Below are positions 13,744 to 52,304 of a stretch of 64,000 nt of DNA, in pieces. Positions within the stretch are counted from its first letter, which is position 1. Each line of letters starts with the position of its first letter. The notes below the pieces were generated by a model. That model saw only the letters and a list, made by a program, of their open reading frames with translations, was not told where the DNA came from and did no database searches. The translations under genes were made by a program, and so were the position numbers. The stretch spans positions 11,182,101-11,246,100 of the forward strand of contig NC_092677.1 of the NCBI RefSeq assembly GCF_964355755.1, given 5' to 3'. This DNA comes from Antedon mediterranea (lineage: Eukaryota; Animalia; Echinodermata).

Positions 13744-13902
13744 TTATGGGGCGCCATAAGCAGAAAATGTATATGCGTGGCTATAAAATGTATGTGTATA
13801 TTTACAATATTTAATTTTAAATGTACACATTTCTCATTCATTTTACAGCCAAAAACTTGTGTTTGACACACATACACATTTGCTGCTTATGGCGCCCCAT
13901 AA
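13744..13902. mobile_element. MITE with 20-bp perfect (~36-bp imperfect) TIR just upstream of the ZNFX1-A promoter
   Basis: TTATGGGGCGCCATAAGCAG (13744-13763) and its exact reverse complement (13883-13902). Confidence 0.75.
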
Positions 13903-13906
13903 TATA

Positions 13907-14036
13907 TGACGTAATAACTGCGTCAGAGGTCTTGTTTTCACTGAACCGTATCAATTATTATGTTTACGCATGCGTGATTATTTGGGAATTTCCATTTCTA
14001 TGAAACGGAAACTGTTTTAAACGTAAAATATATCAG
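13907..14036 (+). promoter_or_regulatory. ZNFX1-A proximal promoter / first non-coding exon with CRE-like, NF-kB, GAS and ISRE motifs
   Basis: TGACGTAA 13907-13914; GGGAATTTCC 13984-13993; TTCTATGAA (TTCN3GAA) 13996-14004; GAAACGGAAACT (GAAANNGAAACT) 14002-14013. Donor CAG|GTACAG at 14036/14037 pairs with the acceptor at 14485. Confidence 0.7.
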
Positions 14037-14506
14037 GTACAGTACATTTAATATCGGGCACACTTTAATGTCTAGATAATTAATCTAAAAAAGGATCGGG
14101 TTATGTATTTCTTGTTAAAAGGCTAGAAACATGAGTACAGTGTCTGGTATTGTACTGATGTAGTGAGTAGCCTATAATTATATAGATAGTCAGATAGAGG
14201 CCTAAAAAACAACACAGTATAGTAGGTAAGCAGACCTATCTTTTTTGTGTATGTAGTCAGGGCCGAGAGCTATAACGTGAAATCCAGATGAAGGAAATAA
14301 ATAGAATTCATTTAATTAAGTCACCATTTTTATATATTTTATTGTAACTTTTTTTGTCAACTCAACACTCATCCTAGACAAAATGGCAAACTATTTTGTT
14401 CATGCACTCACTTACTGGATAGTAGGCCTATTTCACATAATGATTGTAATCAATTTTGATAATCCTCAATTATGTTTTTACACAGGCATGTGTTCGAATC
14501 TACCAA

Positions 14507-17500
14507 ATGTCTGAAAGTAAAAGACGCTACCACCATCGACACCGCAGTGTCCAACGTAACGATGACCGTGGTGGACATAGAACCACGTCACAGGAAAGAC
14601 CAAGGTGCAATGCATATAGACCAACAACAGAAAGGTAAATATATTAAATAAGAAAATCTACTGAGAAAAAAATGTAGTATATTTAGCTTCTAGAGATTCA
14701 GCCAGTGTAGCCAATAATTGACATGGGGTCGAGAAATGGAACACATGAAACACCTAAAGTTCTATGTTTATGATAAGCTACTACATTCAGAATTTTTTGA
14801 GAGGTTACATTAGTAAACCAATCTTTGATAGACCCACCAATGATCCACATTGCATATATCAGTTTTAATTTAAAAATAAGAACTATCTATTTGATGCACC
14901 ATGTTTTTATAGACACGTTGTTGTAGACCGACATGCAATTCCTCACAGCAACAATTGGCACCGCAGTGGCCGAAGTGAACACAGAAGTTCGTTACAGAGT
15001 GATAGACAATCTAGCTACAGATCAACAGAAAGGTAAACTTTCAGTCATTTACCTACTGAATAAAATTGCAATATGTCTTAAGCCCTGTCTACACTATCAA
15101 ACTTTATATGACAAAAAAAAATGTGTTATGTCAGTACCATATTTGGGTAGATCAAACTTTTTTTGTCAAAGCTAGTCTGCTTTAGCTTCACAGTGCTGTG
15201 ATAATAGGCTACAAATACAAAAAAAATGTTTGTAAATGTTAACATAAATAATGCTTAATTATTTAGTATGGTTATAATAATGAATTTCAGTAGTACTGTA
15301 TTTGCTCATTATTTTTTTTAGCAAACATTGTGATGCAGAGAGAAGAAATGACGACCGTAATAGAGATATTGGTAACCAGATAGACCCTAGACGAAGCTCC
15401 AGTTGCAGTGGTAGTCTGAAAAGACCACATAGTCAAGAGGGAAATAATCTCAAAGAGGGACAACCTCCGAAAAAGAGAGGTCATTGGCCTAAAAAAGAAC
15501 TTAGACCAACAGGTGCATTATACTGTATTCTTTATAAATTAAAATCAAGATGAGTTAGTTGCCAAGTTAATTTTTGTCGTCATTTGAGACGTCATTGATT
15601 ACTTGGTAGATTTCCTCATTTTTACAAATTGTTATTTGTTTTAGTTATTTTGGGAACTTATCCATTTGAAGTACAGTATCTAAATTTTTTTTTTATAATA
15701 TGGATGTCAGTAAAAAAATATTTAACCATGGAAGCACTGTTGACATGGGCATTAACTATATTTTTTAATAAAAAATGTCAGCACATATCAGCAAGTAACT
15801 CGCCAATTACAGAATGGATATACTATCATGATCATACTTATAAACTAATTGTCTATAAGGCTTAGAAAATGGAAAAAATAGTCAGGCAAGCATGTTAATC
15901 ATCAAGCTACAGAACTATTTCCAATATTTAATGTAATTTTTATATTTCATATTATTTGTTTTTTATTTATTGATAAACTAACCAATTCATTCTTGTTTCC
16001 ATTTAGGCTATAAACGTCTACAAGAACTTCTGAGTAAAGAAAAAGAAGAAATACTTATTCAGCTTTCATCAACTAATTTTGGTTTTCAGGAACTTCTAAA
16101 TCAAAAAGAAGAAATTCGTAGAGATCTTCGCGCCTTAATTTTACGCGCCATTGTTTGTGCGTGCGAGTGTACTACTGCCCAAGCTTCGTTGAATTCATTT
16201 TTAGGCAAACTTCAGAATTCCGAGTTTTTCTATCATGTGCAGCATCATATAATGTCATTAAAAGATGATGGAAATGACAAGATACAATATGAAGTCGAAA
16301 TACAAGATATCATTACTGTAATTCGGACAATGATCCACCGGCTCCCAGACACTATAGATGATGTTAAACCATCTATACTGCTTCTTACTGCGACTACTGA
16401 CGATTTACTTGCAGAAGGGTTAATTAATGAGTATGTCATGGAAAGTTTCAAAGAACTCAAAAAGCTGTCTAAGAATACTCAAGGTGCTGTACGGAAAAAG
16501 AAGTTCAATGTCGATGGAGAAACTCCACCACCAGACAACTTTCGGGAGATATCAATATTTCCTACAATAAACGATCTTACTGCAGACTACAAACCTTACT
16601 TACGGAAGAATAGACTTGGTGGTAGTTATGATGACGTAGACCATTATCTAGATGTCCACTTCCGTTTAATTCGTGAGGACTTGGTGAGACCACTTCGAGA
16701 AGGCATTAAGGAGTATCTGCATACCAAAGATGACTCAAATAAGCGCATAACTAGCATACGTATATATTACGATGTAACCATCGAGTATCCAGTATGTTCC
16801 CATGATTGTGTATTATACCGAGTACACTTTGATGTGTCGCGATTGAAGGGAGTTCGCTGGCAATCCACAAAACGCCTGATCTATGGGTCACTTGTCTGCC
16901 TGTCTCCGGACGATTTCAAATCAGTTTACTTTGCTACTGTTGCAAATAGAGATGTAAAGGATCTTGAGAATGGTTTTGTAGATTTAAAATTAGAAAACGA
17001 AGAAGAGTTTGAGAAATTAAACGAATGTCGCTATACCATGGTTGAAACATCGTCCTTCTTTGAGGCTTACCGGCACGTCCTGAAGAGTTTGCAGGAAATT
17101 ACAGAAACGAGCATGCCAATGAAAAGCTACATCATCAAAGGCCACCACAAAGTTGAAGCTCCATCATACCTTCGTCACAACATGACTATGACGTATGACC
17201 TTACACCATTGGTAAATGACACTACCAAATGTCTTGTAAGGTTAGCCGGTAATTCATGGCCAACTGCTAAATCTCTTCAACTCGATGAATCGCAATTTAC
17301 TGCCTTCAGAAATGCGTTGACGAAAGAGTTTGTAGTCATCCAAGGACCACCTGGAACTGGCAAAACCTACATAGGGTTGAAGATTGTACAAGCACTACTT
17401 TACAACAGTGAATGCTGGACAATTGACGCTGTTCATCATAGGGTAAAACATAGCCCTATATTTGTAGTCTGCTTCACAAATCATGCGCTTGATCAATTTC

Positions 17501-20500
17501 TTGAAGGCATACACTCATTTGTACAAACAGGTATTGTACGAGTTGGCGGCAGAAGTAAAAGTGAAATTTTAAACAGCTACAATCTCTCTCAGCTTCGAAA
17601 AAAGTTAAGGGAGGTAAAAGAAGTACCCAGATATATATTTGATAGAAAAAGGGACATTGAATATGAAATGCGTGAATTACGAGGTGTTATGGATCTAGCA
17701 GAGGAAAGAATCAAATTAACAACAAGAGGTGTTCTTTGTGAAATGTACATAGAAACATGGATGTCATGTGATCATTACAAATCATTGACACAGAATAGAA
17801 TAAACAATGAAAACATAGTGGTGACTTGGTTAGGATTGGGTGAGACTATAGTTACCGACACAGTTGTTGATTCTTGTCAAAATATTGCAAACAAACTTAA
17901 TGAAGAGCCTGTAAAAGAAGAAGACGACGACGACGACGACAGAGAAATGGATTTTGCTGAAGAAGAAGATTTACTAATAGAACAGAGATTAATTGATACT
18001 GATGTTGCTAATGATGAAACTCTCAATTTAAAAGAAATCGATACTTTAAGACAGACATTTGTGTATGGTTTCCAGTTGACTGAAAATAAGAAGGAAGCTC
18101 GATATCTTAAAAGGCAATTACAAAGTTATGACAAAATGACAGATATCGAAGCTGCCAAAGTGGATAACATATGGAATCTTGGACTGGATGATCGTTGGCG
18201 TCTATATCGATTATGGATATCAAAGTACTGTAACCAGGAACGTCAGACACTATTTGCGAATAATTATAAATACAATGAGTTAGGAAAACAACTTCAAGAA
18301 ATCACATTAGAGGAAAATCTTTTTCTGATGAAAGATGCTAAGGTGATTGGTATGACGACCACTGGAGCTGCAAAATGCCGAAATATGATTCAAAGAATCC
18401 AACCCAAGATTGTTATTGTAGAAGAAGCTGCTGAGGTACTAGAAGCTCACATAGTATCAAGTGTAACTCAAGGGTGTGAACATCTGATACTTATAGGAGA
18501 TCACCAACAACTCAGACCAAATCCAACAGTATATGATCTTGCCAAAAAGTTTAATTTGGAGATTTCTCTTTTTGAGAGGATGGTAAAAAACGGCATGAGT
18601 TGTCACAGGTTGGATATTCAACATAGAATGCGACCAGAGATATCTTCACTTATGAAGAACTATTTTTACAATGGACTTCAAGATGCCAAAAATGTAAAGT
18701 TGTATGAAAATGTTAAAGGAATATCAAACAACATGTTTTTCATTGAACATAATCATCAGGAAACAGCTCTCAGTGATACTTTTAGCCAATCAAACATCTA
18801 TGAAGCGGAGTTCTTGGTAAACCTTTCTAAGTACTTGATTCAGCAAGGCTACAAACCAACAGAGATTACAATCCTCACAACCTATACAGGTCAGCTATTT
18901 CAGTTTAAGAAACTAATGACGTCTAAGTTGTTCAACGGTATTCATGTTTGTACTGTTGATAATTATCAAGGTGAAGAAAATGAAATCGTTCTCCTTTCAC
19001 TTGTTCGAAGCAATGAAGAAGGTAAAATTGGATTTCTTAAAGAGAAAAATAGGATGTGTGTTGCTTTATCGAGAGCGAAGAAAGGTTTTTTCTGCATTGG
19101 TAATATGAAGCTTCTAGCAGCCAAAGACAAAAATTGGGGCAAGATTGTCAAAGGCCTTAAACAAAAGAAACTGATTGGAGATACCATTCGATTGTGTTGC
19201 CAAAACCACCCAGAAGCAAGCCTCGACATATGTGAACCTAAAGATTTTGATAATTGTCCAGAGGGAGGTTGTAAAAAGCCTTGTAGTTACAAAATGCAAT
19301 GCGGACACGTCTGTAAGAAGCTATGTCACTCATACGATCCCGAACATAAGAATATCAAGTGTTTAGAGCCTTGTTCCAGAATGACATGTACTTTCGGACA
19401 TCCATGTACACTTTATTGTTATCAGAAATGTAAAGACAACTGTGATGTTCAAATAGAGAGACATTTACCATGTGAACATAAACTAACACTACCATGCTTT
19501 AAAAATAAGGGTACAGTCGTATGTGTGTCTGATTGTCAAAAGATTTTGCGATGCCACCATGCATGTAAAGAAAAATGTAGCCAACCATGCACAGCTGTGT
19601 GTTGTAAGGTTGTAAATAAATCATTACCTTGTGGACATAATGGCGAATACAAATGTTACGTGACTGATCCATTAGACTGCTCTTCGCGATGTGCATTCTC
19701 CTTGAAATGCGGTCATCTCTGTGAAGGAACTTGTGGAGGTTGTAAAAATGGCCGTCTGCATAAACTGTGTGGTTCTAAATGTGGCAGGAAATTGGTATGT
19801 GGTCATGAATGTATAGAACCATGCACTCGTAATTGTCCACCTTGTAGGAAACCATGTCAGAATCGATGTGTTCATAGCAAGTGTCCCAAAAAATGTGGAG
19901 AAAAGTGTACACCTTGTCGAATGCGGTGTGAATGGCAATGCAAACATCATGAATGTACTAAGCAATGTGGAGAACTCTGCAACCGAAAAAGATGCAATAA
20001 ACCATGTAAGAAGTCCCTTAAACGATGTGGTCATGTTTGTGCTGGCCTTTGCGGCGAGCCTTGTCCCAACAAGTGTCTGATTTGTGATAAAGAAGAGTTA
20101 ACTACTATACTGTTTGGTAACGAAGATGAACCTGATGCCAGATTTATTGAGTTAGAAGACTGTGGACATGTTATAGAATCAAAAGGACTAGATAGATGGA
20201 TAGATCTAGAAGACAAAAGTGTGCAATCAAAAGCTTGCCCAGTGTGCAAAACTCCCATCAGAAGGAATCTGCGGTACGGAAACATCATTAAACAAATTCA
20301 AATAGACATAGAACGTGTTAAAGACAAAGTAAATGGACAAATTAGCTTTGACGATAAAAAAAAATTGAGAAGTGAAATTGAAGATTTATCTGACAGAGAG
20401 ATACGCAAGTCTCTACGCCATGAACACAAACTAATAAAGACGCCGAAGCATGTTGCTGATATGCATAACAAAATACAGTTTCTGGAGAAATTAGAAAAAA

Positions 20501-21123
20501 TTAGAGGAGCGTGTTCTGATATCGACAATATTCAATACAAGACAATTGAAAGAAAGATTAAGACAGACATAGAAACCTTAAAAAACTACATTCTCAAACC
20601 AAGAAGTCGATTTAGTGAGCAACTTTTAGAAGATATTTTGTCTGAGCTTCAACGTATTTCATTCTTAGTGGAATTGCATGTGCATAAAAGTAAACTGCAA
20701 GCATCGCAAATTAGCAAGAACAATTTAACAGATTCCTTTACTACAGTCGAAAAATGTTTCACTGATGTAGGCCCTTTAAAAGAAGATGATATAAACAAAA
20801 TACAGGCATGCTTGAAAAATATACGAGATAATTGCGGCAGAGTTCCTGGAATATCAGAAGAAGAACGGCTACAAATTGTAAAGGCTATAGGATTATCGAA
20901 AGGTCATTGGTTTAAATGCCCAAAAGGACACATATACGCGATTGGTGAATGTGGTGGTGCTACGGTAGAAAGTGTATGTCCAGAATGCAAATCTAAAATT
21001 GGAGGGAAAAAGCATCACCTTCGAGATGATAATAAACTTGCCAGTGAAATGGATGACGCTCAATATGCTTCCTGGTCAGAACAAGCGAATATGGAAAATT
21101 ATATATTAGACAATATCGTTTAA
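14507..21123 (+). CDS. ZNFX1: NFX1-type zinc finger-containing protein 1, canonical copy A (~1851 aa): Arg-rich N-terminus, ARM-like region, SF1B helicase, NFX1 zinc-finger array, RING-like domain, intact RZ finger
   Basis: Exons 14507-14634, 14913-15032, 15322-15512 and 16007-21123 splice in frame (5556 nt). Motifs: GYKRLQELL, HYLDVHFRLIRED, KRLIYGSLVCLS, QGPPGTGKT, CFTNHALDQFLE, VEEAAE, LIGDHQQLRP, QHRM, VDNYQGEE, RMCVALSRAK, many CGH..C..C repeats, EDCGHVIE...CPVCKTPI, and C-terminal WFKCPKGHIYAIGECGGA..VCPECKSKIGG..H. Confidence 0.93.
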
Positions 21124-21124
21124 C

Positions 21125-21872
21125 ATGGAGAAATAAAAAGAGCAATAAAACATTTTTTAAAGAATAAGAATTGAAGGTTTTTCTGATATTTAGACACAGA
21201 AATCACTGAACTTCAAAAGTTAAAGACACTAGAGCAGGTTGGTAATATGAAGAACAGAATACAATGTCTTATGAGATTAGAACTTATTTGCCAAGCAATA
21301 CTCAATACGAGACAATAACAAGAAAGATAAAAGAAGACCTCAAACCTCAAAATGTATCCTCAAACCTCAAAGTAGGTTTAGTGAGCAACATTTAGAAGAT
21401 ATATTGTCTGAACTAAACGGTTTTTTTATGGAACTAAACGTGCTTAAATGTAAATGGCAAACGTTTGAAATTAAGAAAGAGTCTGTAACGGAATCTATTA
21501 GTACGGTTGACACAATTTTCACCAAAGTAGGCGTTTTGAAAGAAGATGAAATTAAATAAATACCATACAATCTTTCTTGGAAAAAATACGAGATAAGTGT
21601 GGCAGTATTCCTGGAATATCCGAAGAAAATCGGGTGAACATTGTAAGGCAATGGATCTAAAAAGGGGATCTTGGTTTAAGTGCCCAAACGGACACGTGCA
21701 ATATATGCAATTGGTGAGTGCGGTGGTGCTATAGAGGAAGCAAAATGTCCTGAATGCGGATCCAATATTGGAGGCAAAAACCACTGCATTCAACACATTT
21801 GCTGGTGAAATGGATGGCGGTCGATATGCCGCCTGGTCGAATCCAACAAATCTAGCAAATTATATACTGTAA
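21125..21872 (+). pseudogene. Frameshifted tandem duplicate of the ZNFX1-A 3' end (helical region + RZ finger)
   Basis: Colinear with ~20332-21123 of copy A. Fragments read PGISEENRVNIV, WFKCPNGH, (frameshift) IYAIGECGGAIEEAKCPECGSNIGGKNH and FAGEMDGGRYAAWSNPTNLANYIL*, broken by several indels and stops. Confidence 0.88.
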
Positions 21873-22187
21873 TGTGTAAAAAAAATATATAATTTCTGAC
21901 ATTAAGTTTAAAACTTATTTCTTGGTAAAAGCATATGTATTTCGTCTCAGTTTATCATCATATATAGCCTATGTTCATTTAACTGTATTTTATATAGTTA
22001 TTTGTGGTTTTCGTAACCTAATTGTAGGCTAATACGACCATATAAGGCCTCTGTAAATTTACATTTTGTAATTTAGTACAAGTTGATACCTGCATGCTGC
22101 ATGTATCATTTTATTATATCCAAGTTAAGTGTGCTATTATAAAAGTGTACTGACACGTGATCTCATTTCTATCTCATTTCCTGTCTC

Positions 22188-22228: not shown

Positions 22229-22462
22229 GCAGTTTCCGTTGAAACGTCAATTTTTAAAAACAACACAGTACTTAAATATTCATGATTATATGACATCCAA
22301 TCAAAAGACGTCTACAGAAATGTTATTTTCTTATTACTAAATCACGTGATTGTTGGAAATTCCCCACCTATAGTAGTAGAATTCACAAGAACACCATACA
22401 TCTATATTAGCCCATGACTAGTTCAGAATGTTAAATAAAGTCATTTTATTGTATTTCATATG
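22229..22462 (+). promoter_or_regulatory. ZNFX1-B promoter and first non-coding exon
   Basis: CAGTTTCCGTT ISRE-like 11-mer (22230-22240), CCAAT (~22297), E-box CACGTG 22343-22348, NF-kB GGAAATTCCC 22355-22364 and donor ATG|GTAAGT at 22462/22463. The block from CCAAT onward is homologous to 43528-43695 upstream of copy C. Confidence 0.65.
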
Positions 22463-22830
22463 GTAAGTATACTACTATTTTTCTGTATATTTTATAGGCA
22501 TCTTATTCACTATAAAGCCTCTATCCCAATTTAACAAACAAAATAGGAAACAGAATTAGGAATAGAATTGAATTGGCACGAAATACGGAGCAATAATGGT
22601 GTAAGCAGTTTCCCAATTCAATTTTAAATTACTTCATCAAATTTTAGCATATAGAACAAGACTTAAACTATGTAATGTTGAAATAGAACCTGCATGGAAA
22701 CAATTTAACTGAATGATTGTGTTTTTCTGCTAATAAACATATTTTAAGTTAGAGCAATATTGTAACAGGAAATAAAAATTATAGCAAACTAATAAATGAG
22801 CTAATTCTTTTTTCATATAAAATATTGTTA

Positions 22831-26747: not shown

Positions 26748-29700
26748 ATGAGTGGTGCCCGTCCTAAAGATCCAGGAAGACATCCTCTTCACTACAACAG
26801 TGCCAGAACTCGACGAATAGGCCTACATACACATAGGCGCCAGGATCATTGCTTTGGAAGATATGACACATCTAAAGATGATACTCAACAATTACCGTAT
26901 TTGAATGTCGGTCAACAAATAGAAAGACCCAACCACCGGGATGAATATAGGAGAAGAAAAGGAAATTTGAAACATACTCGAAACATAAGAGGAAGAGGCA
27001 GAGGAAATTTGAAACATATGCATGGGTATGATCTGACTATATTCTATATTACATAGCTTAAATTAAATACGTGAACGTGATTGGTTGAAACTGGATCACA
27101 TGACTCGGCGCTCCGGGGATCGTAATCCGTATTATTGATGTGTTTATTTCGCGTGATTTTTGTGTCCCTGTCATTAAACATATAAAATCCAGCAAATACG
27201 GAGGAGTTTGATATTGACTGTGTAATTTTCGAGTGAGAACTCGCGTCTACCGTCAAATAAATAAAAGTCATCTACTCAAGATCTAACCCACATCATCACG
27301 TGACAACGTTTTACACGCCGCGCGCTACGTAATATCGGAGCCCATATCAGGCGCTGTAAACTATGCATAGATAGCGCCCTCATTGTGTTATTCACCCTCT
27401 ATAATATATGTGACAAAAGACCGCTTGTGATTGGTCAATGCTCAGCTCATAATACACTGTCATGTAGTTCGCTGGTACGCGCGGCGCGCTGAACATCCGG
27501 TTGGTGATTCGGCTCGAATAGTCAGCAGGCGGCTTAACAACAAAAGATGAGGAAATCGTTACACAGTGGACAAAAGCGCCAAATTTGGCATGGAGCTTCG
27601 TTGGGACCTACCAATTGATTTTTGCCTAGGAGCCACTCTGGTCGTAATTTATTTTTCAAGATGGCGGCCAAAATTCAAAATGGCCGCCAATAAATTGGAA
27701 AATCACATTTCATTTGTTGCAGAAGTCGCATATAGGCAAATGAACTATCAAAACATAAGTATTCATGGTCATTGAAACATATTTTAGACATTTTGCATGA
27801 CATGGGTCATTCGTTGTTAAGATAGTGGCCAAAATCCAACATGGCTGCCAGTAGCCTAAACTGGAATATCATTCAGGTTGCAGAAATCGCATATAGGTAT
27901 CAAACGAAGTTGGAAAACATGGAGTAGGCCTAATCATGGTCATTGAAACATATTTTAGACATGGTACATAATATAGGTCACTCGTTGCAAAGATGGTGGG
28001 AAAAATCCAAAATGGCTGCCAGTAAACTAGGAAATCACATACAGTATCTGTGGACGGCAGAAGTAAATGTAAATGAAGTAACTGTAGTTAATGGTAGAGG
28101 TGCTATGTAAATTACAAGTAACTGTAAAAAAAATCGATAAAAAAAAGTTATAACCAGTTCAGTTTCTGAAACCACATAAAATGTGGTATTTTTGGAAAAT
28201 AAAGATTGAGGGCGCTGTTCACATAAGTAAAAGTACACTTTTTTACCTGTAACTAACTAAGTTTTTGTCAGAATATTTTTTAAATGGTCTTATTTGATAC
28301 ATAATTACATTTTCTTTATATTAAAAAAAAAAAAATTTACATTAAATATCCATAGTTCAGATAAATTTACGTTAAGTGCCTAAAATCAGCAAATATAACA
28401 CATTTTAATACATAACAAATACTATTGGATATTAAGAAATTACAAATTTAGTTATCATAATTAGGATTCTTTTACATTTTTATAGAAACTGTTTTATTAT
28501 AAAACATATAAATATATATTTTTCTAACAATTTCTCATAAAAAAACTTTTACGACCACTAGTTTTCGAGATATTGAAATGTGTACTACCAGTACAGGTCA
28601 AAGGTCAATAACAAGAATCTGGGTCATTTTCTTGGAAAAGTTTGTATTAGACTGAATAGAAACATCCATCTTCTGATTAATTTGAGACCTATTTAAAGTT
28701 TGTCCAACTTTTAGTTACCAAGTTATATGACATGTAGGTCAAAGGTCAAAAATACCAAAAATCATACTTCCGGCCATTTGTTGACAAATGTTTCCATTAG
28801 GACGAATATTAATATGCATCTTCCAAAGAATTTGACACTAAAATTATTTAATTTAATGTAAGCTTTGCGGAGATATGGTTATTTTGTTTTCAATTGGATT
28901 AAAATATTCAAATTGAGGTCAAAGGTCAAGGAAAAACTTTAGAAATTTGATAACATGGGTTTTTATATTCTAGCATGGTTAAACAATTCATAAAATGCAA
29001 TGCTTGCACTTTCCTTCTGATTTGCAGACTAAATTACATTAGGAATGGACTATTTGTGACTTTGTATACGATTACATGTATTTCAATATCAATGGCTACC
29101 ATTTTTATTTTTGGGCGCCATTTTGGAACTCACTTTATATAATATTTCCTGAATCGGTTTTACTGACCTCAGAAATTCTTGATTCAGTACATTATTTGTC
29201 TATTTGTAACTTGTACAGCCAGAGATATATGATATGGCAAAAATCAATTAGTACGTCTAAAAGAAGCCTCATGCCAAATCTGCAGCTCCGGGTGTCACGA
29301 AACCTAAGACCACGAAAGCTCAGACCCCCTAAGACCTAAGATCACGAAAGCTAAGACCCAACACCTAAGATTACAAATACTAAGATGTACTACAGCTTAA
29401 AAACAATACTTGTTTATCCATACATAATTTTAAACACAGTAGGTTTCATTTATTACCATAAATATAATTTAATACTACCGCAAAACATAGATAAACTCAC
29501 ATTATTTTCGCCCGTTGAGTAAATGTATATTTTTTCTTTACAACAAACAAACTTGACGGGTTGTTTGTTGGTATATATTTACTCCATTGTGTTGGTTCAG
29601 AGGATGTTTTTCTTACGCACCTGCCTTTCTTGTATTTTGACTCCAAATTTGTTGACTAACTTTATCCTGAACACCACACTTTAAAATTAGGACTTATAAG

Positions 29701-38700: not shown

Positions 38701-40344
38701 GCTTCGTATCATGAGGCTACATATTTCCCAGCTGAAGAAACTGGAATTATTTATGTGTTTTTGTATGATTGTGATCATTCACTCGAAATGACTGAAATGG
38801 ATGAATATATGGATCAGGATGAAGGAATTCGATTAAAACAATGTCTTAAATGTCGTAAGACCATACGATTCAGCCCAAGATATGGGAATGTTCTTAAAAC
38901 CATAAACACAAGAATAGCTGAAATTAAGCAAAAGATGCATATTGAAAGATCAGTAGATCGAGTGCAGGATATGAGGCAGAAGATTCTTTCGCAATTACCA
39001 TATCTTGACAAAGAAGACCAAAGACGGATTCATCAAGAAATGGATTCACGCTATGGAGTTAAATATGAACGACTGCTTGTGTTAGACATTATGATTGTAA
39101 TGCTAAGAAGAGTGAACATGATTCGTGATTTAAACCAGAGTGATAATGCCACAACGTACAGTATTATTGTTAATCAAAACATTCAGGAACAAATTTGGAA
39201 ATCGAAAAACATTGCTTCTGAACAAGTTGTTGTTGATATATCCTCAGAACTACAGCGGTTAACCATATGTGATCAGTTAATATCAGTTATGGAAGAGAAA
39301 CTCAGTCTACTTGAAAAGAGTAATCGACTAAAAATGAATTCAGAAGAATCACTAGTAAAGATAGCAAAACGAACTGTTGACCAGTGCTTAAGCTTCTCCC
39401 ACGAACGCTGGTCGACGTGTCGTTATGGTCATGTACTTCAAGTTAACGAAATAATTGAGGAATGTAAAAAATGTGCGGCTCTGGAAAAGGAAGCCCATGG
39501 AAAATGTTACCAACGGCAGGGTTTCAGTAGGGAGAAACAACGGCAATCAGAAAAAAGAAAATGGACCCTAAATTTGACGCAACCAGACCCTCCTGCTAAA
39601 CGACAAAGAACGGTCGTTTATTCGTCTGTTGAAAACAAAAGAGGTAGAGATTATACCAATACCCATCCGAAAGTCAAATGTAAAGTGACTACTACTAAAA
39701 ACAATAAGGAACGTAGGTCTACGTTAAGAGGAGGTAATGAGTCAAGAGCTAGTCTAGATTGTGGACATATCTCTCTATGGCTGGATCAAAGAGATTTGAA
39801 AAGATATAAATGTAGGGAAGATTGTCTTAAAGTATGTAAACGCGGACATGCATGTCCCCTAAAGTGTTTTGAAGATTGTCCACCGTGTGAAGTCATGATT
39901 AGGAAGACACTAGAATGTCAACATAAGGCTAAGATACAGTGTGGTACACCTGGAAGCCAGGTGGATTGTAAAAAGCCGTGTCAGAGGTCATTGAAGTGTG
40001 GCCATAAATGCAAGAACCTATGCTTTGAAAAATGTACATCAAAATGTTTAGAAATTACCAAAAGAGAGTTTTTCCCGTGTGGTCACAGTCTCAATGTTCA
40101 ATGCTATATAAATTCCTGCCAGTCACCTTGTGAAAAAGCGTTATCATGTGGTCATGAATGTCCAAATGTTTGCGGTGATCTCTGCGAAAACTATAACTGC
40201 AAAAACGGTTTCAACCACCATCATGGAGATGGCAAACATGTGATTTGTATAGCACCATGTCAAAAAACATTAACTTGTAAACATCAGTGTCAACGAAAGT
40301 GTTGCGAAAAATTATTATATTATTATTATTATTATTATTACTAA
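26748..40344 (+). CDS. ZNFX1: ZNFX1-like paralog B (~2405 aa): intact helicase, expanded NFX1 array, degenerate RZ finger, second C-terminal NFX1 array, poly-Tyr end
   Basis: Exons 26748-27025, 33075-33139 and 33470-40344 splice in frame (7218 nt) and are homologous to the three coding exons of copy C. Motifs QGPPGTGKT, CYTNHALDQFLE, VVEEAAE, LIGDHQQLKP, QHRM, DNYQGEE and RMCVALSRAK are all intact. Confidence 0.88.
27531..30409. mobile_element. Non-autonomous TIR DNA transposon in ZNFX1-B intron 2
   Basis: Left end GGCTTAACAACAAAA..CGTTACACAGTGGACAAAAGCGCCAAATTTGGCATG mirrors right end CATGCCAAAT..[insertion]..CTTTTGTCCACCGTCGTGTAACGTTTTAGTCGCTAAGCC. Internal AAGATGGCGGCC and GGTCAAAGGTCA repeats; no transposase ORF. 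Confidence 0.65.
29289..30370. mobile_element. Foldback-type element nested in the right TIR of 27531-30409
   Basis: ~100-bp TIRs starting CGGGTGTCACGAAACCTAAGACCACGAAAGC; internal ~29615-29850 also mirrors ~30045-30270. Confidence 0.8.
30820..32599. mobile_element. TIR element (CAGGCCCGTAT[C/G]CAG) with apparent 5-bp TSD CTCGG, carrying a nested truncated hAT-like element
   Basis: 15-bp TIR with one mismatch; CTCGG at 30815-30819 and 32600-32604. Segment 31157-32370 is near-identical to ~41390-42550. Confidence 0.7.
33259..33285. repeat. 27-bp palindromic insertion with 7-bp TSD; empty site visible in paralog C
   Basis: GTAAAAC-CAGGGAAGAGTGAAATTACCTTCCCTG-GTAAAAC. The homologous intron of copy C has a single GTAAAAC (45117-45123). 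Confidence 0.85.
40311..40341 (+). repeat. (TAT)n microsatellite encoding the terminal poly-Tyr of ZNFX1-B
   Basis: ATTATTATATTATTATTATTATTATTATTAC directly before TAA 40342-40344. Confidence 0.9.
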
Positions 40345-43430: not shown

Positions 43431-43695
43431 TGACGTCAGCACCGCAGAACTCTATAGTCAATTATCGATCCTCCATTAAATTAAACATTATTTTCAATAT
43501 TTCATGATATTCCTTCCTGGAATCCATCCAATCAAAAGACGTGTACATGAGACGTAATGTTCATAATATGACAAAGTCACGTGATCCTCGGAAATTCCCA
43601 AAGTAGTAGAATTCACAAAAACGCCATTAGACGATAACTAGGCCCAGACAATACTGAATAAAAAAATAAAATGTAATTTTACAGTATTTCACATG
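43431..43695 (+). promoter_or_regulatory. ZNFX1-C promoter and first non-coding exon
   Basis: CRE TGACGTCA 43431-43438; GAS TTCCTGGAA 43514-43522; CCAAT ~43528; E-box CACGTG 43578-43583; NF-kB GGAAATTCCC 43590-43599; donor ATG|GTAAGT at 43695/43696. Confidence 0.68.
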
Positions 43696-44176
43696 GTAAG
43701 TATTGTCTTTCAAGGTACATTTACAGAGATATAAGCCTATACTACTAGGACACCTACAGTAATGAATGCCTACAAAGAATAATGCCATATGGCGATGTGT
43801 GTATGTGTGTGACGTGTGGGCGTAAGTAATGAATCGACGAGCTATTGTAGGCCTATATGTCGTACATATACTAGGCATATAGTATATAGTTATGATTGTA
43901 TTGTGATTAAATGATAAAACCAAATAATAATATTAGATTAATATAGGATATGTATAATGGACTTGATATTTTATTATACACATAGCCTTCAGTATTATAT
44001 AATATTATAGGCATACGAAGGCCTGCCATTCAAAATCACTGTGTTACTGTAGTTTATTCCGATCTTGAAGGGCGGGGTTTTTTTTCTTATTATTTTTTTT
44101 ATCACTAGGTTATTTTATGATTTGTCTATTTCCATTACATGTTATGCTAAGTTTGTATATTACAGATTGATATATA

Positions 44177-47100
44177 ATGAGTGGTGCTCGTCCTAAAGAT
44201 CCACGACGACATTCTGTCCCCTACAACATATCCCGAAGAATACATAGGACGCAAGATGATTCTCGACAACGTTGGCTCAAACACCGAAAAGACTTTAGAA
44301 GACCGTATAGGCCTACACGAAATAGAAGAGGGAGAGAAAATTTTAAACATACTCGAACCACAAGAGGAAGAGGCAGTTACCATGGGTAGGCCTATGGTCT
44401 GAAACTATATTTTATATAATAAGTCTCCTTTTGAGGATATACATCCATTGTCGTTGTACTCAACTCTTTGATATCATAACTTTGATGTATAGTTTCTTGG
44501 TCCTTCATGGTTTTTTTTTAAAGAATTCAGATGCCCAGAATAAGGTCAAACATTTGCTAAATATGTGTTGTTCATAAGTTAAAATGTGCGTGATACGCGT
44601 AAAACAGACAATCTAACAACAGGATTCTCAGCTCCGGAGGATTTATCTGTGGCTGCGACAATCCGTTCCACGATCAGAAACCGCGAGCCGCGGAGGATGT
44701 GCATAGCAGTACTGTTGGTATTTGTCGCAGCCAGACATAAGATCAAACGACTGTTACGAGTCCCTATCTTGGCAAGGCGAGCTCAGTGTCCTGTTTTTAG
44801 ATTGCCTTACTTATACTAACTATACTAATATGTGATGTGTAGGCTACACATAACATGCTGAGGTTTGACCCACTGAAAGACACTGTGATAAAACAGTAAT
44901 TTTCTCTATAATTAATATTCTCTAGAACCGATGTATGGTCATCATTAAATGGTCCTAACGAAAATTTCACCAAAAGACGTCAAGCAGCAACGCGTAAGTA
45001 AATCTCTTTTACATCATGCTGCGTTGTTCAAGTTAATACGCCTTTTTAAGAAGAAATTTACATGTTGGAATCTCTGAAAACACACCATGTAATCCAATAA
45101 TGTAGAAAAACTACATGTAAAACACTGACTGGAAGAGAAAATCTGCACTGCTTAATATACTGGCCAGAGGTAGTACCATTTGGCTAGGACTTCCATATGG
45201 TAAATAGTAAAACCAATTGAACATTATTTAAATCAGATTGCAAATGAGATACGATGGGATCTACTGTACGGGTATGCTTATGTTTAATTAGATGATAAGC
45301 CTAGTATACATTGATTTAAATATTTAACTTTTTTCATAGAGGAATATCTCACAAGTATATTAGAAGCGAAATCGAAAAATGATGTTGTGACAACTTTATC
45401 CAAGTACACTTATGCTGCTGAAGACATCACAGACTTGGTAAACGCAAAGAAACTTGGCGATGACGTTGTTGAGGTCCTGCTTCAAATTTACGTAAAAGTA
45501 TTCCAGTGTAAATTATCTGACAGCCGAAAGAAAATGATAGATATCATAAAATCTAGTAATTTCTCAAAAAAAGTTCTAATTTCATATGCCACAAATATAG
45601 GAGATTTAAGAAAAAGTGATCGAAAGGAAAATGAAATGTGTATTAAACTTGTATGGAGTTTCCTACAAGGGATGATGAGTTCTGGATATGAAGACATAAA
45701 TGATTTAGCACTAATTACAACCATACTTGACATCCAAAGTAAAGAATTGTTTGAGAAGTTGAAGTTGAATCAAAATGCTCTCATTGATGTAGCGCGTTTC
45801 AAAAAAGAATCAAACAAATACGTATCAGATGTTAAGAAAGCAGAGAAGAAAAATAGGCAACGCGAATCTGCTAAACGAGAAGGGATATGTGATGGCCCGC
45901 CGCCTAATGACTATCGGGACATTCCGATATTGCCAACCACATATGATGTCCATTCTACAGAGCCTCCATTCCTTCGTCCAAACATAAGCAAAGGAAGCTA
46001 CGCAAGCCAGTACCATTATCTTGATGTACAATTCCGATTGTTACGTGAAGACTTTATTTGTCCATTGCGTGAAGGAATTCAAACACATCTCGATAGTCTA
46101 GCAAATCCACTTCCACGCAATCAGAGGAAGAGAAACACAGATGTTCGCTTATACTATGATGTTAAGATTATCAATCCAGTGTTTTCTCAGAGAGAGGAAG
46201 GAGTTCTCCATCGGGTACACTTTAGTCTTAATAATCTAAAGTACGTCAAATGGAAAAACACAAAAAGGTTGATGTTTGGTTCACTTGTATGTTTATCTCA
46301 CGACAATTTCCAAACGCTTTTATTTGGTACAATTTGCACTAGAGAAGATTGTTACAAAGGTCGTGTTGACATTAAATTCCATGCATTACCCAATACGGAG
46401 ATAGCCCGCATCTATACTATGGTAGAGTCTACGGCATTCTTTGAGAATTATAGAGCTGTCTTGCAAGTTCTCCAACAGTTTGATGACGTCAACTGTATAC
46501 CAATGGATAGGTATATCATACAAGCATCGCATGACATAAGACGACCGAAGTATCTTCTTAATAAAACAACAATGAAGTACGACATTAGTCCATTGCTAAA
46601 GGCTGACGTTCAGAAAAACTCGATTGATATTCTAGATGAAAATGCTTGGCCAGGAATTGACAAACTTGTACTTGATGAATCACAGGTTAGTGCTGTCAAA
46701 TCAGCCTTAACAGACGAACTAGCAGTTATTCAAGGGCCACCGGGAACCGGGAAAACCTATATTGGATTGAAGGTTGTTAAGACTTTGCTTATCAACAAAC
46801 ACCAATGGGCCATGAATAACCTAGGCGAAGACAGTGGTAGTGATGCTATAATGGTGATATGTTATACAAATCATGCCTTAGACCAGTTTCTTGAAGGTAT
46901 ACTGCCATTTTGTGATAATTTAGTGAGAATTGGCGGACGGTCAAAAAGCACAAAGCTTGAACAATATAATTTGAAAGAATTAATAAGGCGCATGAACAGA
47001 AGGACAAGACATGACTTCCAAAGAATAGAAGAACTTGCAGATTTTGTTAGCAGACAGATGATAGCAGGTGAAGAAATGATGAAACTTTGTGATAAATATA

Positions 47101-50100
47101 TTGTGAGTGAATTTACGTTAGAAAATATCATAGATGCTCGACATCTGGAATGTTTGAGAGATTCTAGAGAGGAATATGGAGTGGATGGACACCGTTCGAC
47201 TTTGCCTATGTGGTTAGGTCTGCTTTCTGTATCTGATAATTACACACAAGTTGACGTGTTAACTGATGACGACAAACAAGATGATGACGAAAACAACAAG
47301 GGTAATACTAATATCACGACTGAATTTGACAGGATATTGGATCAACGAGATTATGATGACGTCAGGTCAAAACAGGATTACGAGTCCAAGAAAAATACGA
47401 TAATTACTGATCTTTCCTCTAAGCTTGCATATGATCCGAAAATGCAATGTAAAGACGCCCCTTTAAAAAGGCATAGAGCGACGGTACGAAAACAACTGTC
47501 TATTGTTAATGACGAAATGTCAGAACATGAAGCAAGTAGAGTAAATATTCGCAAGTTATCCGTACATGATAGATGGCGTCTATACCGATATTGGATAGGA
47601 AAGTATAAATGTCAATTACGCCAAAATTTGTTTGAACAACAGCATTCTTATGATGAGATGTTACTCAGTAGTGTTGAGCAAAAAAATGACAGGAAACTTA
47701 ACATTCTGCAAAAGGCGAATGTAATAGGAATAACAACAACTGGTGCTGCTAGGAATAAAGGCTTACTAAATGAAATACGACCAAGAATAGTTGTTGTTGA
47801 AGAGGCTGCGGAAATTCTGGAAGCACATATTGTGACAAGCCTAACAAAACAATGCGAACATCTAATTCTAATTGGAGACCACCAGCAATTGAAGCCTAAT
47901 CCTACTGTATACAAACTTGCCACTAAATTCAATCTTGACATATCCATGTTTGAACGCATGCTTACTAATGGTGTTCCCTGTAAGAAACTGTCGTCACAAC
48001 ACCGAATGCGACCAGAAATATCACAAATCATGAGGAAACACTTCTACAGCCATCTGCTCGACGACGAGTCAGTTAAATATTTTGATAACATTCGAGGTGT
48101 ATCTCATAATATGTTCTTCATCAACCATGATATCCAAGAGGAGTCCATGGAAGATATATTAAGCAAGTCAAATATTCACGAAGCTGAGTATTGTGTGGCA
48201 CTTGCTAAGTATTTATGTCATCAAGGTTACGATGCATCTAGTATCACCATCTTGACGACGTACACTGGCCAGGTACTAAACTTCAAACGAATACTCAGAA
48301 AGGAATCGTATGCTTCTCTTCGTGATATTTATGTAAGTTCTGTAGATAATTATCAAGGTGAAGAAAACGAAATAATATTGGTGTCATTTGTACGAAGCAA
48401 TGAGGCTGGGAATATTGGATTTTTAAAAGTTTCAAACAGAATGTGTGTGGCATTATCAAGAGCAAAAAAAGGTTTGTTCTGTATTGGAAACTTTAAACTT
48501 CTCGCTGAAAAGAGTGACCTCTGGATGAAAATAGTTCAAGACATAAAACCATTAAATTGTATAGGAGATTATCTGGAGTTGTACTGCCATAACCATCGTG
48601 ATACAAAGGTTAAAGTATCTTCCGCTGTAGATTTTAAACAATTTCCAATGGGAGGATGCAAACGTAAGTGTGAAACTCGCTTAGAATGTGGTCATGTCTG
48701 TCAGTGGCTGTGTCATCCAGATCCAAATCATATGATGTATGAATGTAAGGAGGACTGCGCAAAATCATGCAGACAGGGTCATGCATGCCGTCGAAAGTGT
48801 TTTGAAGATTGTACTTTGTGTGAAGTCAAGGTTAGCAAAACATTACAATGTCAACATGATATTGAAATACCGTGTTATCAATTTGAAACGCCAGTAGATT
48901 GTAAGGAACCATGCGAAATGATATTGAAGTGTGGTCATGACTGCAAGAAAGTATGCTTTGAAAAATGTACATCAGAATGTTTAGAAATTGTCACAAGAGA
49001 ATTTTCTCCATGCGGTCACAAAACAGATGTCCAATGCTACATAACGATAATGACATGCGGGTTACCTTGTGAAAAGACACTGGCATGTGGTCATGCGTGT
49101 AAAGAAAGATGTGGCGATACTTGTACAATCAAGTGCACTGAGGTTATAGAGAAGACATTTGATTGCGGACATATCGTAAGGGTTTGTTGCTTTACACAAA
49201 CATGTCCACAGTCATGTTCAAAATTGTTGCAGTGTGGCCACAAGTGTAAACTAAAATGTTACGAGACGTGTTCCAGAGATAATTGCACAGAAGTAGTAAT
49301 AAAGAAACTTAGATGTGGACATGAGAAAGAGCTACTTTGTTATGAAGATCCTGAAGAAATGTTTCGAAAGTGTCATGAGAATGTTACTAAAACTCTTGAA
49401 TGTGGACACCAGAAAGAGCTACCATGTTATGTAGATCCCAAATACATTACGTATTTGGACTTTGATCTAAGATGCAATGTGGAAGTTACTAAATTGCTTC
49501 AATGTGGACATGAACAAACAATAAATTGTTGGAAATCTTCGGGGCTTTATAAAACTGGCTGTCTTGAAAATGTCGAGGAAACATTAGAATGTGGACACAA
49601 AATCAGACGGATTTGTTCAGAGAGCAAATTGTGCAAAATGAAGTGCTCAAGATTATTGCTATGTGGACACAAATGTAAAAGACTTTGTTCCCAGCCATGT
49701 ATGAAACAATGTAATGTGGGAGTAGAAAAGAAACTGAAGTGTGGACATATGAAGTCTGTGCCATGCTCTTTAGATGTGTCAGAGATAGTAACTAGTGGGG
49801 AAGCAGCATTTGCATTTAACCTGGTAGACGAGCATGAATATTGTACAAAGCGATGTTCAAGAACACTAACATGTGGTCATCCCTGCACGAATATATGTGC
49901 AGACAGTTGCAATGTTAGTTGTCAACAACAATGCAAAGACACTTTAATATGTGGACACGTATGCCAAGGAAAATGTATAGATTGTAAAGACAACTTACAT
50001 AAGGAATGCACAGAATGTTGTAACAAGAAACTTATCTGTGGTCATAATTGTCAACAATCATGTTCAATTATTCCTTGTCAACCCTGCAAAAAGCATTGTA

Positions 50101-52196
50101 AATCTGCTTGTTGGCACAAACGTTGTCAGCGTTCCTGTTCCGATATTTGCGAACCATGTAAATCTCCATGTAAATGGCAATGCATTCACTTAAGATGTAC
50201 GAATTTATGCAATGAAATTTGTAATCGTAACAGGTGCAACGAACCGTGTCAAGCGAGTCTTAACTGCGGACATAGATGTTGTGGTTTGTGTGGTGAGCAA
50301 TGCCAAACTAAGTGTGTAGATTGTGATCCAGCTTCGTACTATGCGGCTAAATATCTCCCAGCTGAAGAAACTAGATTCATTTATGTGTTTTTGTATGATT
50401 GTGATCACGCAATTGAAATGGATGAAATGGATGAATATATGGATAAGGATGAAGGTATTCGATTAAAGCAATGTCTTAAATGTCGTAAGACCATACGATT
50501 CAGTCCAAGATACGGAAATGTTCTTAAAACCATAAATACAAGAATAGCTGAAATCAAGAAGAAGATGCAAAGTGAAAGATCATTAGATCGAGTGCAAGAT
50601 ATGAGGCGGAAGATTGTTTCACAATTACCATGTCTTGACACAAACGACCAAAGACGGATTCAACGAGAAATGGATTTACGCTATGGAGTTAAATATAAAC
50701 GACTGCTTGTGTTAGACATTATGATTGTAATGCTAAGAAGAGTGAACATGATTCGTGATTTAAACCAGAGCGATAATGCCACAACGTATAGTATAGATAT
50801 TGTTAAACAAGTAGAAAATATTCAGGAACGAATTAGGAATTCGAAAAACATTGCCTCTGAACAAGTTGTTGTTGATATATCCTCAGAACTACAACGGTTA
50901 AACATATGTATTCAGTTAATAAAGCTTCAGTCAGATTCGGAACATTCTGATGATATCAATGATTTGTTATCCACCCTTCTCCACCCCAAATTACCTTTGA
51001 TCGGTGAAGTTATGGAAGAGAAACTCAATCTACTTGAAAAAGATAATCAACTAAAAATGAATTCAGGAGAATCACTAGTAAGTGTAGCAAAAGGAACTGT
51101 TGACCGGTGCTTGAGCTTTTCCCACGAACGCTGGTCGACGTGTCGTTATGGTCATGTACTTCAAGTTAACGAACTAATTAAAGAATGTAAAGAATGCTCG
51201 GCTCCAGAAAAGAGTAACTATGTTTTCAAAGTGATTTTAAAATCTGAAGATGGAAAATGTTCCCAACGGCGTAGTGCCAGTGCAAATAAACAACGTCACT
51301 CACAAAAACGAAAATCTGCTGCAAATGTGACCCCAACAACCGACCCTTCTGCTAAACGACAAAGAACGGTTGTTTATTCGTCTGTTGAAAACAAAAGAGG
51401 TAGAGATCATACTCATACCAACCTGAAAGCGAAACATAAACAACGTGGGCATAGGTCTACGTTCGGATTGTGGACACTGGATTGCAGACATGTCTCTCCA
51501 TTTATGGATCAAAGAGATTTGAAGAGATATAAATGTATGAAAGATTGTCTTAGAGTATGTAAACGGGGACATGCATGTTCTCTAAAATGTTTTGAAGATT
51601 GTCCACCGTGTGAAGTCATGATTAGGAAGACACTAGAATGTCAACATAAGGCTAAGATACAGTGTGGTACAACTGGAAGCCGAGTGGATTGTAAAAAACC
51701 GTGTCAGAGGTCATTGGAGTGTAGTCATGAATGCAAGAATCTATGCTTTGAAAAATGTACATCAAAATGTTTAGAAATTACCCAAAGAGAGTTTTCTCCG
51801 TGTGGTCACAGTCTTAATGTGCAATGCTACAAAACTTTCTGTCAGGCACCATGTGAAAAGACGCTAGCATGTGGTCATGAATGTCCAAACGTTTGCGGTA
51901 ATTTCTGCGAAAACTGTAAATGCAAAAAAAGTTTCAACCACCATCATGATGATGGCAAACATATTATTTGTAAAGCACCATGTCAAAAAACATTAACGTG
52001 TGGACATCAGTGTCAACGAAAGTGTTGCGAAAAATGTATCAATTATAGTTGCACAAAAAAGGTTACAAAGACACTAATTTGTGGGCATGATAAAGAATTA
52101 CCATGTTATGTAGATTATGAACGAGTAACACGTAATACAGACGCTTTCAGAGGATGGTTAAGAAGTAAGCCAGAAATGAAATGTCTAGAATGTTAA
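44177..52196 (+). CDS. ZNFX1: ZNFX1-like paralog C (~2377 aa): intact helicase, expanded NFX1 array, degenerate RZ finger, second C-terminal NFX1 array
   Basis: Exons 44177-44385, 44926-44993 and 45340-52196 splice in frame (7134 nt). Starts MSGARPKDP like copy B; all SF1B helicase motifs intact; highly similar to B throughout. Confidence 0.9.
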
Positions 52197-52304
52197 AGAT
52201 ACACTAACATGTGAGCACACAATTACACGAATTTGTTCACAGATTGCAGTCTGCAATGAGTTTAAAGTATCGTCTTCATATTTCTTTGAATCTTTACATG
52301 TCTA

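What the first reader, a model, noticed from the sequence alone, without database searches (positions are those of the whole stretch)
13900..52300. Tandem ZNFX1 cluster with one E3-competent copy and two re-engineered, RZ-dead, zinc-finger-expanded paralogs: candidate sensor/effector (or decoy) RNA-defence module
Seen: three long intact ZNFX1 genes plus a pseudogenised fragment lie head to tail between SNX16 and IPO4. A has the canonical architecture. B and C keep every SF1B helicase motif but have a highly diverged ARM region, a much longer NFX1 array, a crippled RZ finger and a new C-terminal module. All three share an NF-kB promoter site. Established: ZNFX1 is an interferon-inducible RNA-binding helicase in vertebrates and acts in heritable RNAi in nematodes, and the RZ finger it shares with RNF213 carries ubiquitin-ligase activity. 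Inference: the cluster has divided labour, with A as the ubiquitinating effector and B/C as co-induced, ligase-dead RNA sensors, scaffolds, negative regulators or decoys for viral antagonists. I do not know of a description of this architecture, but I could not search for one.
Basis: partly seen in the sequence, partly recalled or inferred. Interest (0 to 1): 0.88.

Follow-up and report, generated by a model that had tools for sequence, protein, structure and literature searches.

The report
Feather-star ZNFX1 paralogs, half the ligase
Next to an ordinary copy of the antiviral RNA helicase ZNFX1, a feather star carries two conserved copies with a doubled zinc-finger arm that have lost one of the enzyme's two ubiquitin-transfer sites but kept most of the other, so they likely act as longer-lived RNA traps rather than dead decoys, and one has also lost its self-inhibiting helix.

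Summary
The anatomy is real. The window is crinoid: gene A equals Antedon mediterranea RefSeq P0020. It holds canonical A, a broken 3' relic, and paralogs B and C. B and C have intact helicases, stalks about twice as long, an RZ finger lacking its catalytic Cys/His, and a tail copied from their own stalk. They are true paralogs under purifying selection (dN/dS 0.42), not haplotypes.

'Ligase-dead' is not supported. Human ZNFX1 has a second, RZ-independent ligase (Z-RING/Miz). B/C keep its zinc ligands, an aromatic at the E2 site and an Arg linchpin, though two E2-facing loop residues deviate. Best reading (0.5): B/C keep only the allosteric K63/RNA-trapping route and lose the RZ/K48 turnover route. 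B also lacks the autoinhibitory plug helix, in both sequenced samples.

The architecture is not locus-specific. Long-stalk, RZ-dead ZNFX1s occur in other crinoids, sea stars and corals, and C. elegans ZNFX-1 lacks RZ. No RNA data were available and an A-B/C module is untested. I did not find this paralog class in 10 literature searches, but the one metazoan ZNFX1 survey was not readable. The scan's notes held nothing on it. Verdict: new variant of a known kind.

The parts
13984..13993 (+). kB consensus site upstream of gene A
14000..14013 (+). ISRE/IRF-like site, only at gene A (consensus recalled)
   Evidence: 1 match, 0.09 expected, 9 of 100 shuffles reach 1
14507..21123 (+). Gene A, canonical ZNFX1, 1851 aa; coding exons 14507-14634, 14913-15032, 15322-15512, 16007-21123
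   Evidence: identical to RefSeq P0020; Pfam
20083..20277 (+). A: Z-RING/Miz domain (F at the E2 site, K linchpin)
20908..21015 (+). A: intact RZ finger with catalytic Cys and His
21200..21870 (+). Frameshifted 3' relic of an A-type ZNFX1 (helical bundle end and RZ only)
   Evidence: 71% DNA identity to A 20526-21105
22294..22470 (+). B promoter and inferred non-coding exon 1, kB site at 22355-22364 (minus strand)
   Evidence: homologous to 43525-43703; exon inferred
26748..40344 (+). Gene B, long-stalk RZ-dead ZNFX1, 2405 aa; predicted coding exons 26748-27025, 33075-33139, 33470-40344
   Evidence: splicing predicted, no RNA
35452..35457 (+). B: junction of the 30-nt in-frame deletion that removes the plug/blocking helix (present in C at 47316-47345)
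   Evidence: bridged without gaps by contigs of both samples
38692..38883 (+). B: Z-RING/Miz domain (Tyr at the E2 site, four Zn ligands, Arg linchpin, Pro-to-Leu in loop 2)
39409..39474 (+). B: RZ remnant, Zn ligands kept, catalytic Cys and His lost
39749..40344 (+). B: C-terminal zinc-finger module, a copy of the stalk start, cut short at an ATT microsatellite (40311-40340)
43525..43703 (+). C promoter and inferred non-coding exon 1, kB site at 43590-43599 (minus strand)
44177..52196 (+). Gene C, long-stalk RZ-dead ZNFX1, 2377 aa; predicted coding exons 44177-44385, 44926-44993, 45340-52196
   Evidence: splicing predicted, no RNA
50322..50513 (+). C: Z-RING/Miz domain (Tyr 50352, Zn ligands 50400/50406/50472/50481, Leu 50475, Arg 50484)
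51132..51197 (+). C: RZ remnant
51477..52196 (+). C: C-terminal zinc-finger module duplicated from the stalk start

Best explanation
B and C are conserved crinoid ZNFX1 paralogs with an intact helicase, a doubled zinc-finger stalk and no RZ catalytic residues, which likely still ubiquitinate through their retained Z-RING domain and so would work as slow-turnover, K63-chain RNA traps beside the canonical two-route enzyme A. Shown by sequence: helicase motifs, Z-RING zinc ligands, aromatic E2-site residue, Arg linchpin, loss of the RZ nucleophile and base, purifying selection, and the plug-helix deletion in B. Taken from human biochemistry: the Z-RING route makes K63 chains that drive aggregation and RNA entrapment, the RZ route makes K48 chains that drive turnover, and the plug helix suppresses basal ATPase. 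Inferred and untested: (1) transcription and NF-kB induction; (2) RNA binding activates the Z-RING; (3) K63 chains plus the extra zinc fingers build persistent RNA condensates; (4) B, without the plug, is de-repressed or unstable; (5) A may ubiquitinate and clear B/C in trans if they co-assemble.
For: Human ZNFX1 with the RZ Cys mutated stays an active E3 in vitro, makes K63 chains, is more stable in cells and delays Sindbis virus 2.5 h against 5 h for wild type. An RZ-less fragment is more active than full-length C1860A. C. elegans ZNFX-1 lacks RZ. Numbering (F1575 lies 16 residues before C1591) maps to Tyr in B, C and P0002. C1591/H1593/C1619/C1622 are kept and Q1623 is Arg. Tyr at that site occurs in 8 of 55 filled rows of alignment A2 and in two RZ-competent homologs, P0130 and P0144. 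The C model has pLDDT 91-97 over residues 41-100, the Z-RING (alignment-driven). B vs C dN/dS is 0.42 (95% CI 0.37-0.51), 0.14-0.26 in the helicase core, with 17 codon-sized gaps and no stop in about 6.8 kb. The clade includes Anneissia, 100/100 support. The plug maps to the deleted segment by a numbering offset of 87 checked against Walker B.
Against: Two near-invariant Z-RING loop residues differ in B/C: Pro (73 of 77 rows) is Leu and Gly (46 of 56 filled rows) is Leu/Phe. That these loops face the E2 is recalled RING knowledge, and the changes could abolish E2 binding. dN/dS of the Z-RING alone is 0.35 but its CI (0.12-1.46) includes 1. In cells one study found that either single mutant loses most auto-ubiquitylation, and human patients with RZ-less truncations are ill. 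Other long-stalk lineages have mostly lost the E2 aromatic and linchpin too (only 2 of 25 clusters keep an aromatic), so full ligase death is a common end state. B and C were not found as proteins in three searches although A was. Deleting the plug made human ZNFX1 unstable, and B carries two further lesions.
Confidence: 0.5

Rival explanations
1. B and C are fully ligase-dead RNA-binding helicase scaffolds or decoys: the Z-RING is kept only as a fold, and any ubiquitination would come from A in trans.
For: Pro-to-Leu and Gly loop changes. Coral and sea-star long forms mostly lack the E2 aromatic, and 18 of 25 have Ser at the linchpin. Human ZNFX1 ubiquitylates an inactive copy in trans.
Against: Tyr and Arg at the two residues shown to matter in human, and consensus at most other Z-RING positions. 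The sister paralogs P0001/P0002 keep the Pro. ARM dimer surfaces of A and B/C are only 20% identical, and the two types are on different scaffolds in Anneissia.
Confidence: 0.27
2. Birth-and-death of an immune gene family: the cluster has no division of labour, B is a young pseudogene and C is redundant or silent.
For: Broken relic in the cluster, truncated or partial models among relatives (P0002, P0003, P0048, P0119), three lesions in B, and no B/C protein in the collection.
Against: dN/dS 0.42. B has no excess of derived residues (45 vs 40 for C, among 259 differing columns). The long type persists in two crinoid genera. The kB site is kept in both promoters.
Confidence: 0.14
3. B and C serve endogenous or germline RNA silencing, as RZ-less C. 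elegans ZNFX-1 does, not antiviral defence.
For: The one described RZ-less ZNFX1 traps RNA in granules for RNAi.
Against: Perfect kB sites at both promoters. Oyster ZNFX1 is virus-induced (passages).
Confidence: 0.08
4. B and C are uncollapsed haplotypes of one gene.
For: Tandem position and 86-90% DNA identity in coding blocks.
Against: dS 0.21. Intron sizes differ about tenfold. B-specific and C-specific contigs occur in both samples, and each gene shows its own variant sites between runs of one sample, for example 35572 and 46707.
Confidence: 0.01

Closest known systems
Human ZNFX1 (PDB 9q9z; 10.1101/2025.10.14.682297; 10.1101/2025.09.05.674436; PMC13710534)
   Same: ARM - SF1B helicase with 1B/1C insertions - NFX1 stalk - Z-RING/Miz - helical bundle - RZ. 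Gene A matches throughout; B/C match up to the RZ.
   Different: B/C have about twice the stalk, no RZ catalytic Cys/His, an extra duplicated finger module after the RZ remnant and a divergent ARM. B has no plug helix. They resemble the engineered C1860A and blocking-helix mutants.
C. elegans ZNFX-1 (as described in 10.1101/2025.10.14.682297; sequence not examined here)
   Same: Natural ZNFX1 without RZ activity that is proposed to rely on the Miz domain.
   Different: There the RZ is absent altogether. Here an RZ remnant is kept, the stalk is expanded, and the gene coexists with RZ-competent paralogs.
Long-stalk RZ-dead ZNFX1-like proteins of corals and anemone (P0075, P0044, P0077, P0028, P0006) and sea stars (P0041, P0116): database proteins, no description found
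   Same: Stalk of 800-1700 aa; Z-RING zinc ligands kept; RZ absent or reduced to a non-catalytic zinc knuckle.
   Different: Separate clades in the best helicase tree. They mostly lack the E2 aromatic and a basic linchpin, and have no C-terminal finger module.
RNF213 RZ finger
   Same: A's RZ matches RNF213 structures (E 1.5e-8).
   Different: C's C-terminal 731 aa give no RNF213 match at E 0.001.

Membership tests
ZNFX1 family | ZNFX1 domain plus UPF1-like SF1B helicase (AAA_11, AAA_12) | tested here: met
   for A, B, C; C vs human 9q9z E 7.5e-229
ZNFX1 family | ATP and RNA contact residues (K625, E1006/E1007, R1074, R1223, F1210, R1216, Y450, Y1043) | tested here: met
   read from alignments to 9q9z with offset 87: C up to about residue 1080, B across both RecA lobes; C's RecA2 residues by 93% identity to B; Y450 is Phe in B/C
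ZNFX1 family | N-terminal ARM domain | tested here: met
   A and C align to the 9q9z ARM; 23-27% identity to the bird ARM
ZNFX1 family | Acidic plug/blocking helix in insertion 1C | tested here: not met
   absent in B only; present in A, C, P0001-P0003
Bi-catalytic ZNFX1 E3 (Z-RING plus RZ) | RZ nucleophile C1860 and base H1881 | tested here: not met
   present in A, absent in B and C
Z-RING/Miz allosteric E3 | Zn site C1591/H1593/C1619/C1622 | tested here: met
Z-RING/Miz allosteric E3 | E2-docking aromatic F1575 and linchpin Q1623 | tested here: met
   Tyr and Arg in B/C; Phe and Lys in A; Tyr is a substitution whose effect is untested
Z-RING/Miz allosteric E3 | Conserved loop residues (Gly after the aromatic, Pro after the third Zn ligand) | tested here: not met
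   Leu/Phe and Leu in B/C
Z-RING/Miz allosteric E3 | Cross-brace RING/U-box fold | tested here: inconclusive
   confident model, but both fold searches were filled by the helical bundle
Z-RING/Miz allosteric E3 | E2 binding and chain synthesis | not testable with these tools
Paired sensor/effector or decoy module | Physical interaction and co-expression of A with B/C | not tested
   no complex prediction could be run; no RNA data

The most novel reading that the evidence does not exclude
Invertebrates have repeatedly split the two ubiquitin routes of ZNFX1 between paralogs: whenever the zinc-finger stalk doubles, RZ catalysis is lost (0 of 25 clusters with a stalk of 550 aa or more keep it, against 22 of 41 with 450 aa or less), because the Z-RING to RZ relay no longer serves. 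Crinoid B/C are the K63-only trap stage of this series, corals and sea stars the ligase-free end stage, and B is a natural constitutively open helicase, all co-assembling with and cleared by a canonical copy.
Probability: 0.2. Interest if true: 0.75.

Novelty: new variant of a known kind. Interest (0 to 1): 0.5.

Why it matters
The 2025-26 studies of human ZNFX1 disagree on whether its two ligase sites work in parallel (K63 trapping vs K48 turnover) or as a relay, and leave the role of the stalk and plug helix partly open. This locus offers natural separation-of-function variants kept by selection side by side: two-route (A), RZ-dead with plug (C), RZ-dead without plug (B). It also points to a recurring long-stalk, RZ-dead ZNFX1 class across crinoids, sea stars and corals. 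The family, its invertebrate expansions and RZ loss as such are already known, which caps the surprise.

Tried and rejected
No whole genome is held for the window, so neighbours and synteny beyond it could not be read.

Expression: no RNA holder listed. Run X1, guessed as RNA, covers introns and repeats like the DNA runs, and no spliced joint is among the listed rows. This is no evidence either way.

An X1 contig joining C's tail to B's 3' flank runs through a ~32-bp stretch shared by both genes and may be an assembly chimera, so it was not used. The ATT tract in B was skipped by the read tool, so that frameshift is not confirmed by reads; further stops behind it argue that it is real.

Complex prediction of ARM(A) with ARM(C): the queue was full and the job never ran. 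No verdict.

The single-sequence fold of C's C-terminal 647 aa was unusable (pLDDT 37). Fold searches with the good model matched only generic helical bundles. The Atlas search gave ZNFX1/RZ clusters at 0.91-0.93 and RING clusters under 0.9, with recognition below threshold, so a lead only.

Single origin of all RZ-dead forms: AU p 0.088 with Diadema and 0.042 without; pairwise unions were not rejected (p 0.15-0.30). The best tree needs 3 changes and has no outgroup, so one versus several origins is undecided.

Searches for fused (4014-5000 aa) or split B/C proteins found none; this is weak evidence. The broader kB pattern gave 6 hits against 1.8 expected (4 of 100 shuffles) and the broader IRF pattern was at chance. 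Scan notes had nothing on this architecture, place or sequence.
Full report
Observation. The window is AT-rich eukaryotic DNA. Three giant open exons lie on the + strand at 15982-21123, 33448-40344 and 45315-52196, between SNX16 and importin-4 exons. All three carry the ZNFX1, AAA_11 and AAA_12 domains; only A has the RZ finger. Spliced A is identical over 1851 aa to the Antedon mediterranea RefSeq protein P0020, so the organism is that feather star or a very close relative. GT/AG models for B and C share exon structure and start; they are predictions without RNA support. Between A and B sits a frameshifted relic of only the last ~670 bp of an A-type gene. The exact kB decamer occurs three times, once per gene (0.05 expected), but the B and C sites belong to one duplicated promoter. 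A alone has an adjacent ISRE-like site (consensus recalled; 9 of 100 shuffles give a match).

B and C are paralogs under selection. Over 2186 aligned codons dN/dS is 0.42 (CI 0.37-0.51). It is 0.14-0.26 in the helicase core, 0.35-0.48 in the stalk, 0.38 in the tail fingers and about 1.0 in the basic linker; the Z-RING, helical bundle and RZ remnant have intervals that include 1 (Nei-Gojobori, pairwise only). Introns differ about tenfold in size, contigs specific to each gene occur in both samples, and each gene has its own variant sites. Polarised on P0001/P0002, B has 45 and C 40 derived residues among 259 differing columns; the remaining columns could not be polarised.

What changed in B and C. 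The stalk doubled (322 aa in A, 693 in B, 606 in C). The RZ keeps its four zinc ligands but lost the loop with the nucleophile and the general-base His. Behind it, a basic linker leads to a module copied from the clade's own first fingers. That module is not in the RefSeq models P0001 or P0002, though P0002 ends early. B has three more lesions: a frameshifted, decayed last ~50 codons, a 28-aa deletion in the helical bundle, and a 10-aa deletion in insertion 1C. The last maps onto the autoinhibitory plug helix. Human residues 828-836 fall at chain positions 915-923 of 9q9z, the offset of 87 being fixed by Walker B, and these align with the segment of C that B lacks. Contigs from all four runs laid, representing both samples, cross the junction without a gap. 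In human ZNFX1 an alanine-substituted helix raises basal ATPase and blunts RNA stimulation, and deleting it made the protein unstable. So B is either de-repressed or failing.

The ligase question. Two preprints show a second site. Naydenova et al. (10.1101/2025.10.14.682297; parts 1-4 of 6 read) report a Miz-like domain that is active without RZ in vitro, trans-ubiquitylation between copies, the absence of RZ in C. elegans, and a need for both sites in cells. Squair et al. (10.1101/2025.09.05.674436; parts 1-4, 6, 7 of 11 and passages) assign K63 chains, aggregation and RNA entrapment to this Z-RING, and K48 chains and turnover to RZ; C1860A is more stable and half as restrictive. By their numbering B and C keep all four zinc ligands, have Tyr for F1575 and Arg, the optimal linchpin, for Q1623, and match the family consensus at most other positions. 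Against this, a Pro found in 73 of 77 aligned rows is Leu and a Gly found in 46 of 56 is replaced. The region models confidently (pLDDT 91-97), though that reflects the alignment, and fold searches did not isolate the RING. I put retained allosteric activity with a trap role at 0.5 and full ligase death at about 0.27.

How widespread. The 120 best hits of C (of 1824 at E 1e-20) include two more long-type Antedon proteins with consecutive accessions, three more A-type ones on the same 28.6-Mb sequence, and long-type proteins in Anneissia. Of 152 proteins of 1500 aa or more, grouped into 77 clusters, 72 could be scored by pattern. None of 25 clusters with a stalk of 550 aa or more has both RZ catalytic residues, against 4 of 6 at 452-477 aa and 22 of 41 at 450 aa or less. 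This sample is biased by a long RZ-dead query, some models are truncated, the aromatic was read by a fixed 16-residue count that fails where the loop has indels, and most of the 25 are one cnidarian clade, so the counts are not independent. Helicase trees (52 rows, quick; 24 chosen rows, careful) give separate well-supported crinoid, asteroid and cnidarian long clades, with the crinoid one next to crinoid A types at weak support (65/95). AU tests neither clearly reject nor support one origin (p 0.042 and 0.088).

Is there an A-B/C module? Nothing here shows it. ARM identity is 20%, promoters differ, and in Anneissia the A-type (P0012, P0119) and long-type models (P0003, P0121) are on scaffolds of different lengths, in a fragmented assembly. 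Trans-ubiquitylation in human ZNFX1 keeps it plausible.

Prior knowledge. Invertebrate expansions are in print: 11 copies in an earthworm (PMC7253469, passages) and 3 in Aplysia (PMC9334734, passages). Oyster ZNFX1 is virus-induced (10.64898/2026.05.15.723513, passages). PMC13710534 was read as abstract, passages and sections 7, 8, 11, 13, and PMC13270118 as passages. Grabarczyk et al. 2025 was seen only through those papers. Ten searches found no description of long-stalk RZ-dead paralogs or of a natural plug-less ZNFX1. Blasi et al. 2022, the metazoan ZNFX1 survey, is not held (only its title was seen) and may describe finger-number variation and RZ loss. The preprints' supplements with ortholog alignments are closed.

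Verdict. A real, selected, architecturally distinct paralog class of a known family. The 'dead decoy' label should be replaced by 'RZ-dead, probably Z-RING-active'. The plug-less B and the recurrence across phyla are the parts most worth testing. Expression and every biochemical step remain unshown. Novelty: new variant of a known kind. Interest 0.5.

Noticed in passing
P0007, P0250 (A. mediterranea); P0103, P0106 (S. purpuratus): A-type paralogs that keep the RZ Cys but have Tyr in place of the general-base His, in a crinoid and a sea urchin. Gene A may be the only fully RZ-competent copy among the four Antedon A-type models seen (P0048 ends within the RZ).
   Followed up: partly
P0029, P0077 (Acropora-type long proteins), alignment A4: The plug-helix segment also looks degenerate or shortened in these coral long-type proteins, a possible second loss.
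   Followed up: no
window 51090-51197 and 39367-39474: The helix before the RZ remnant keeps a hydrophobic residue (Val) at the position of human I1835, the ubiquitin-binding residue, so the dead RZ might still bind ubiquitin. Model confidence there is low (pLDDT 54-68) and P0001 has lost a zinc ligand.
   Followed up: partly
window 31154-32370 and 41027-42550: Two copies (92% identical) of a very high-copy repeat, one in B's intron 2 and one between B and C; read depth about a thousandfold above single copy. Such repeats could promote unequal crossover in the cluster.
   Followed up: no
window 2209-2864, 9339-9959, 13282-13419, 52439-52580, 56633-56803: A family of ~130-165-bp palindromic, MITE-like elements with 21-bp internal repeats.
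   Followed up: no
window 12353-12858, 52966-53328, 58891-59699: Tandem arrays: 79-bp x 6.4; 96-bp and 86-bp pairs in inverted arrangement; a 76/156-bp AT-rich array inside the IPO4 region.
   Followed up: no
P0001 (XP_071958632.1): The model repeats the same ~200-aa low-complexity block at both ends, which suggests a mis-joined annotation of tandem long-type genes.
   Followed up: no
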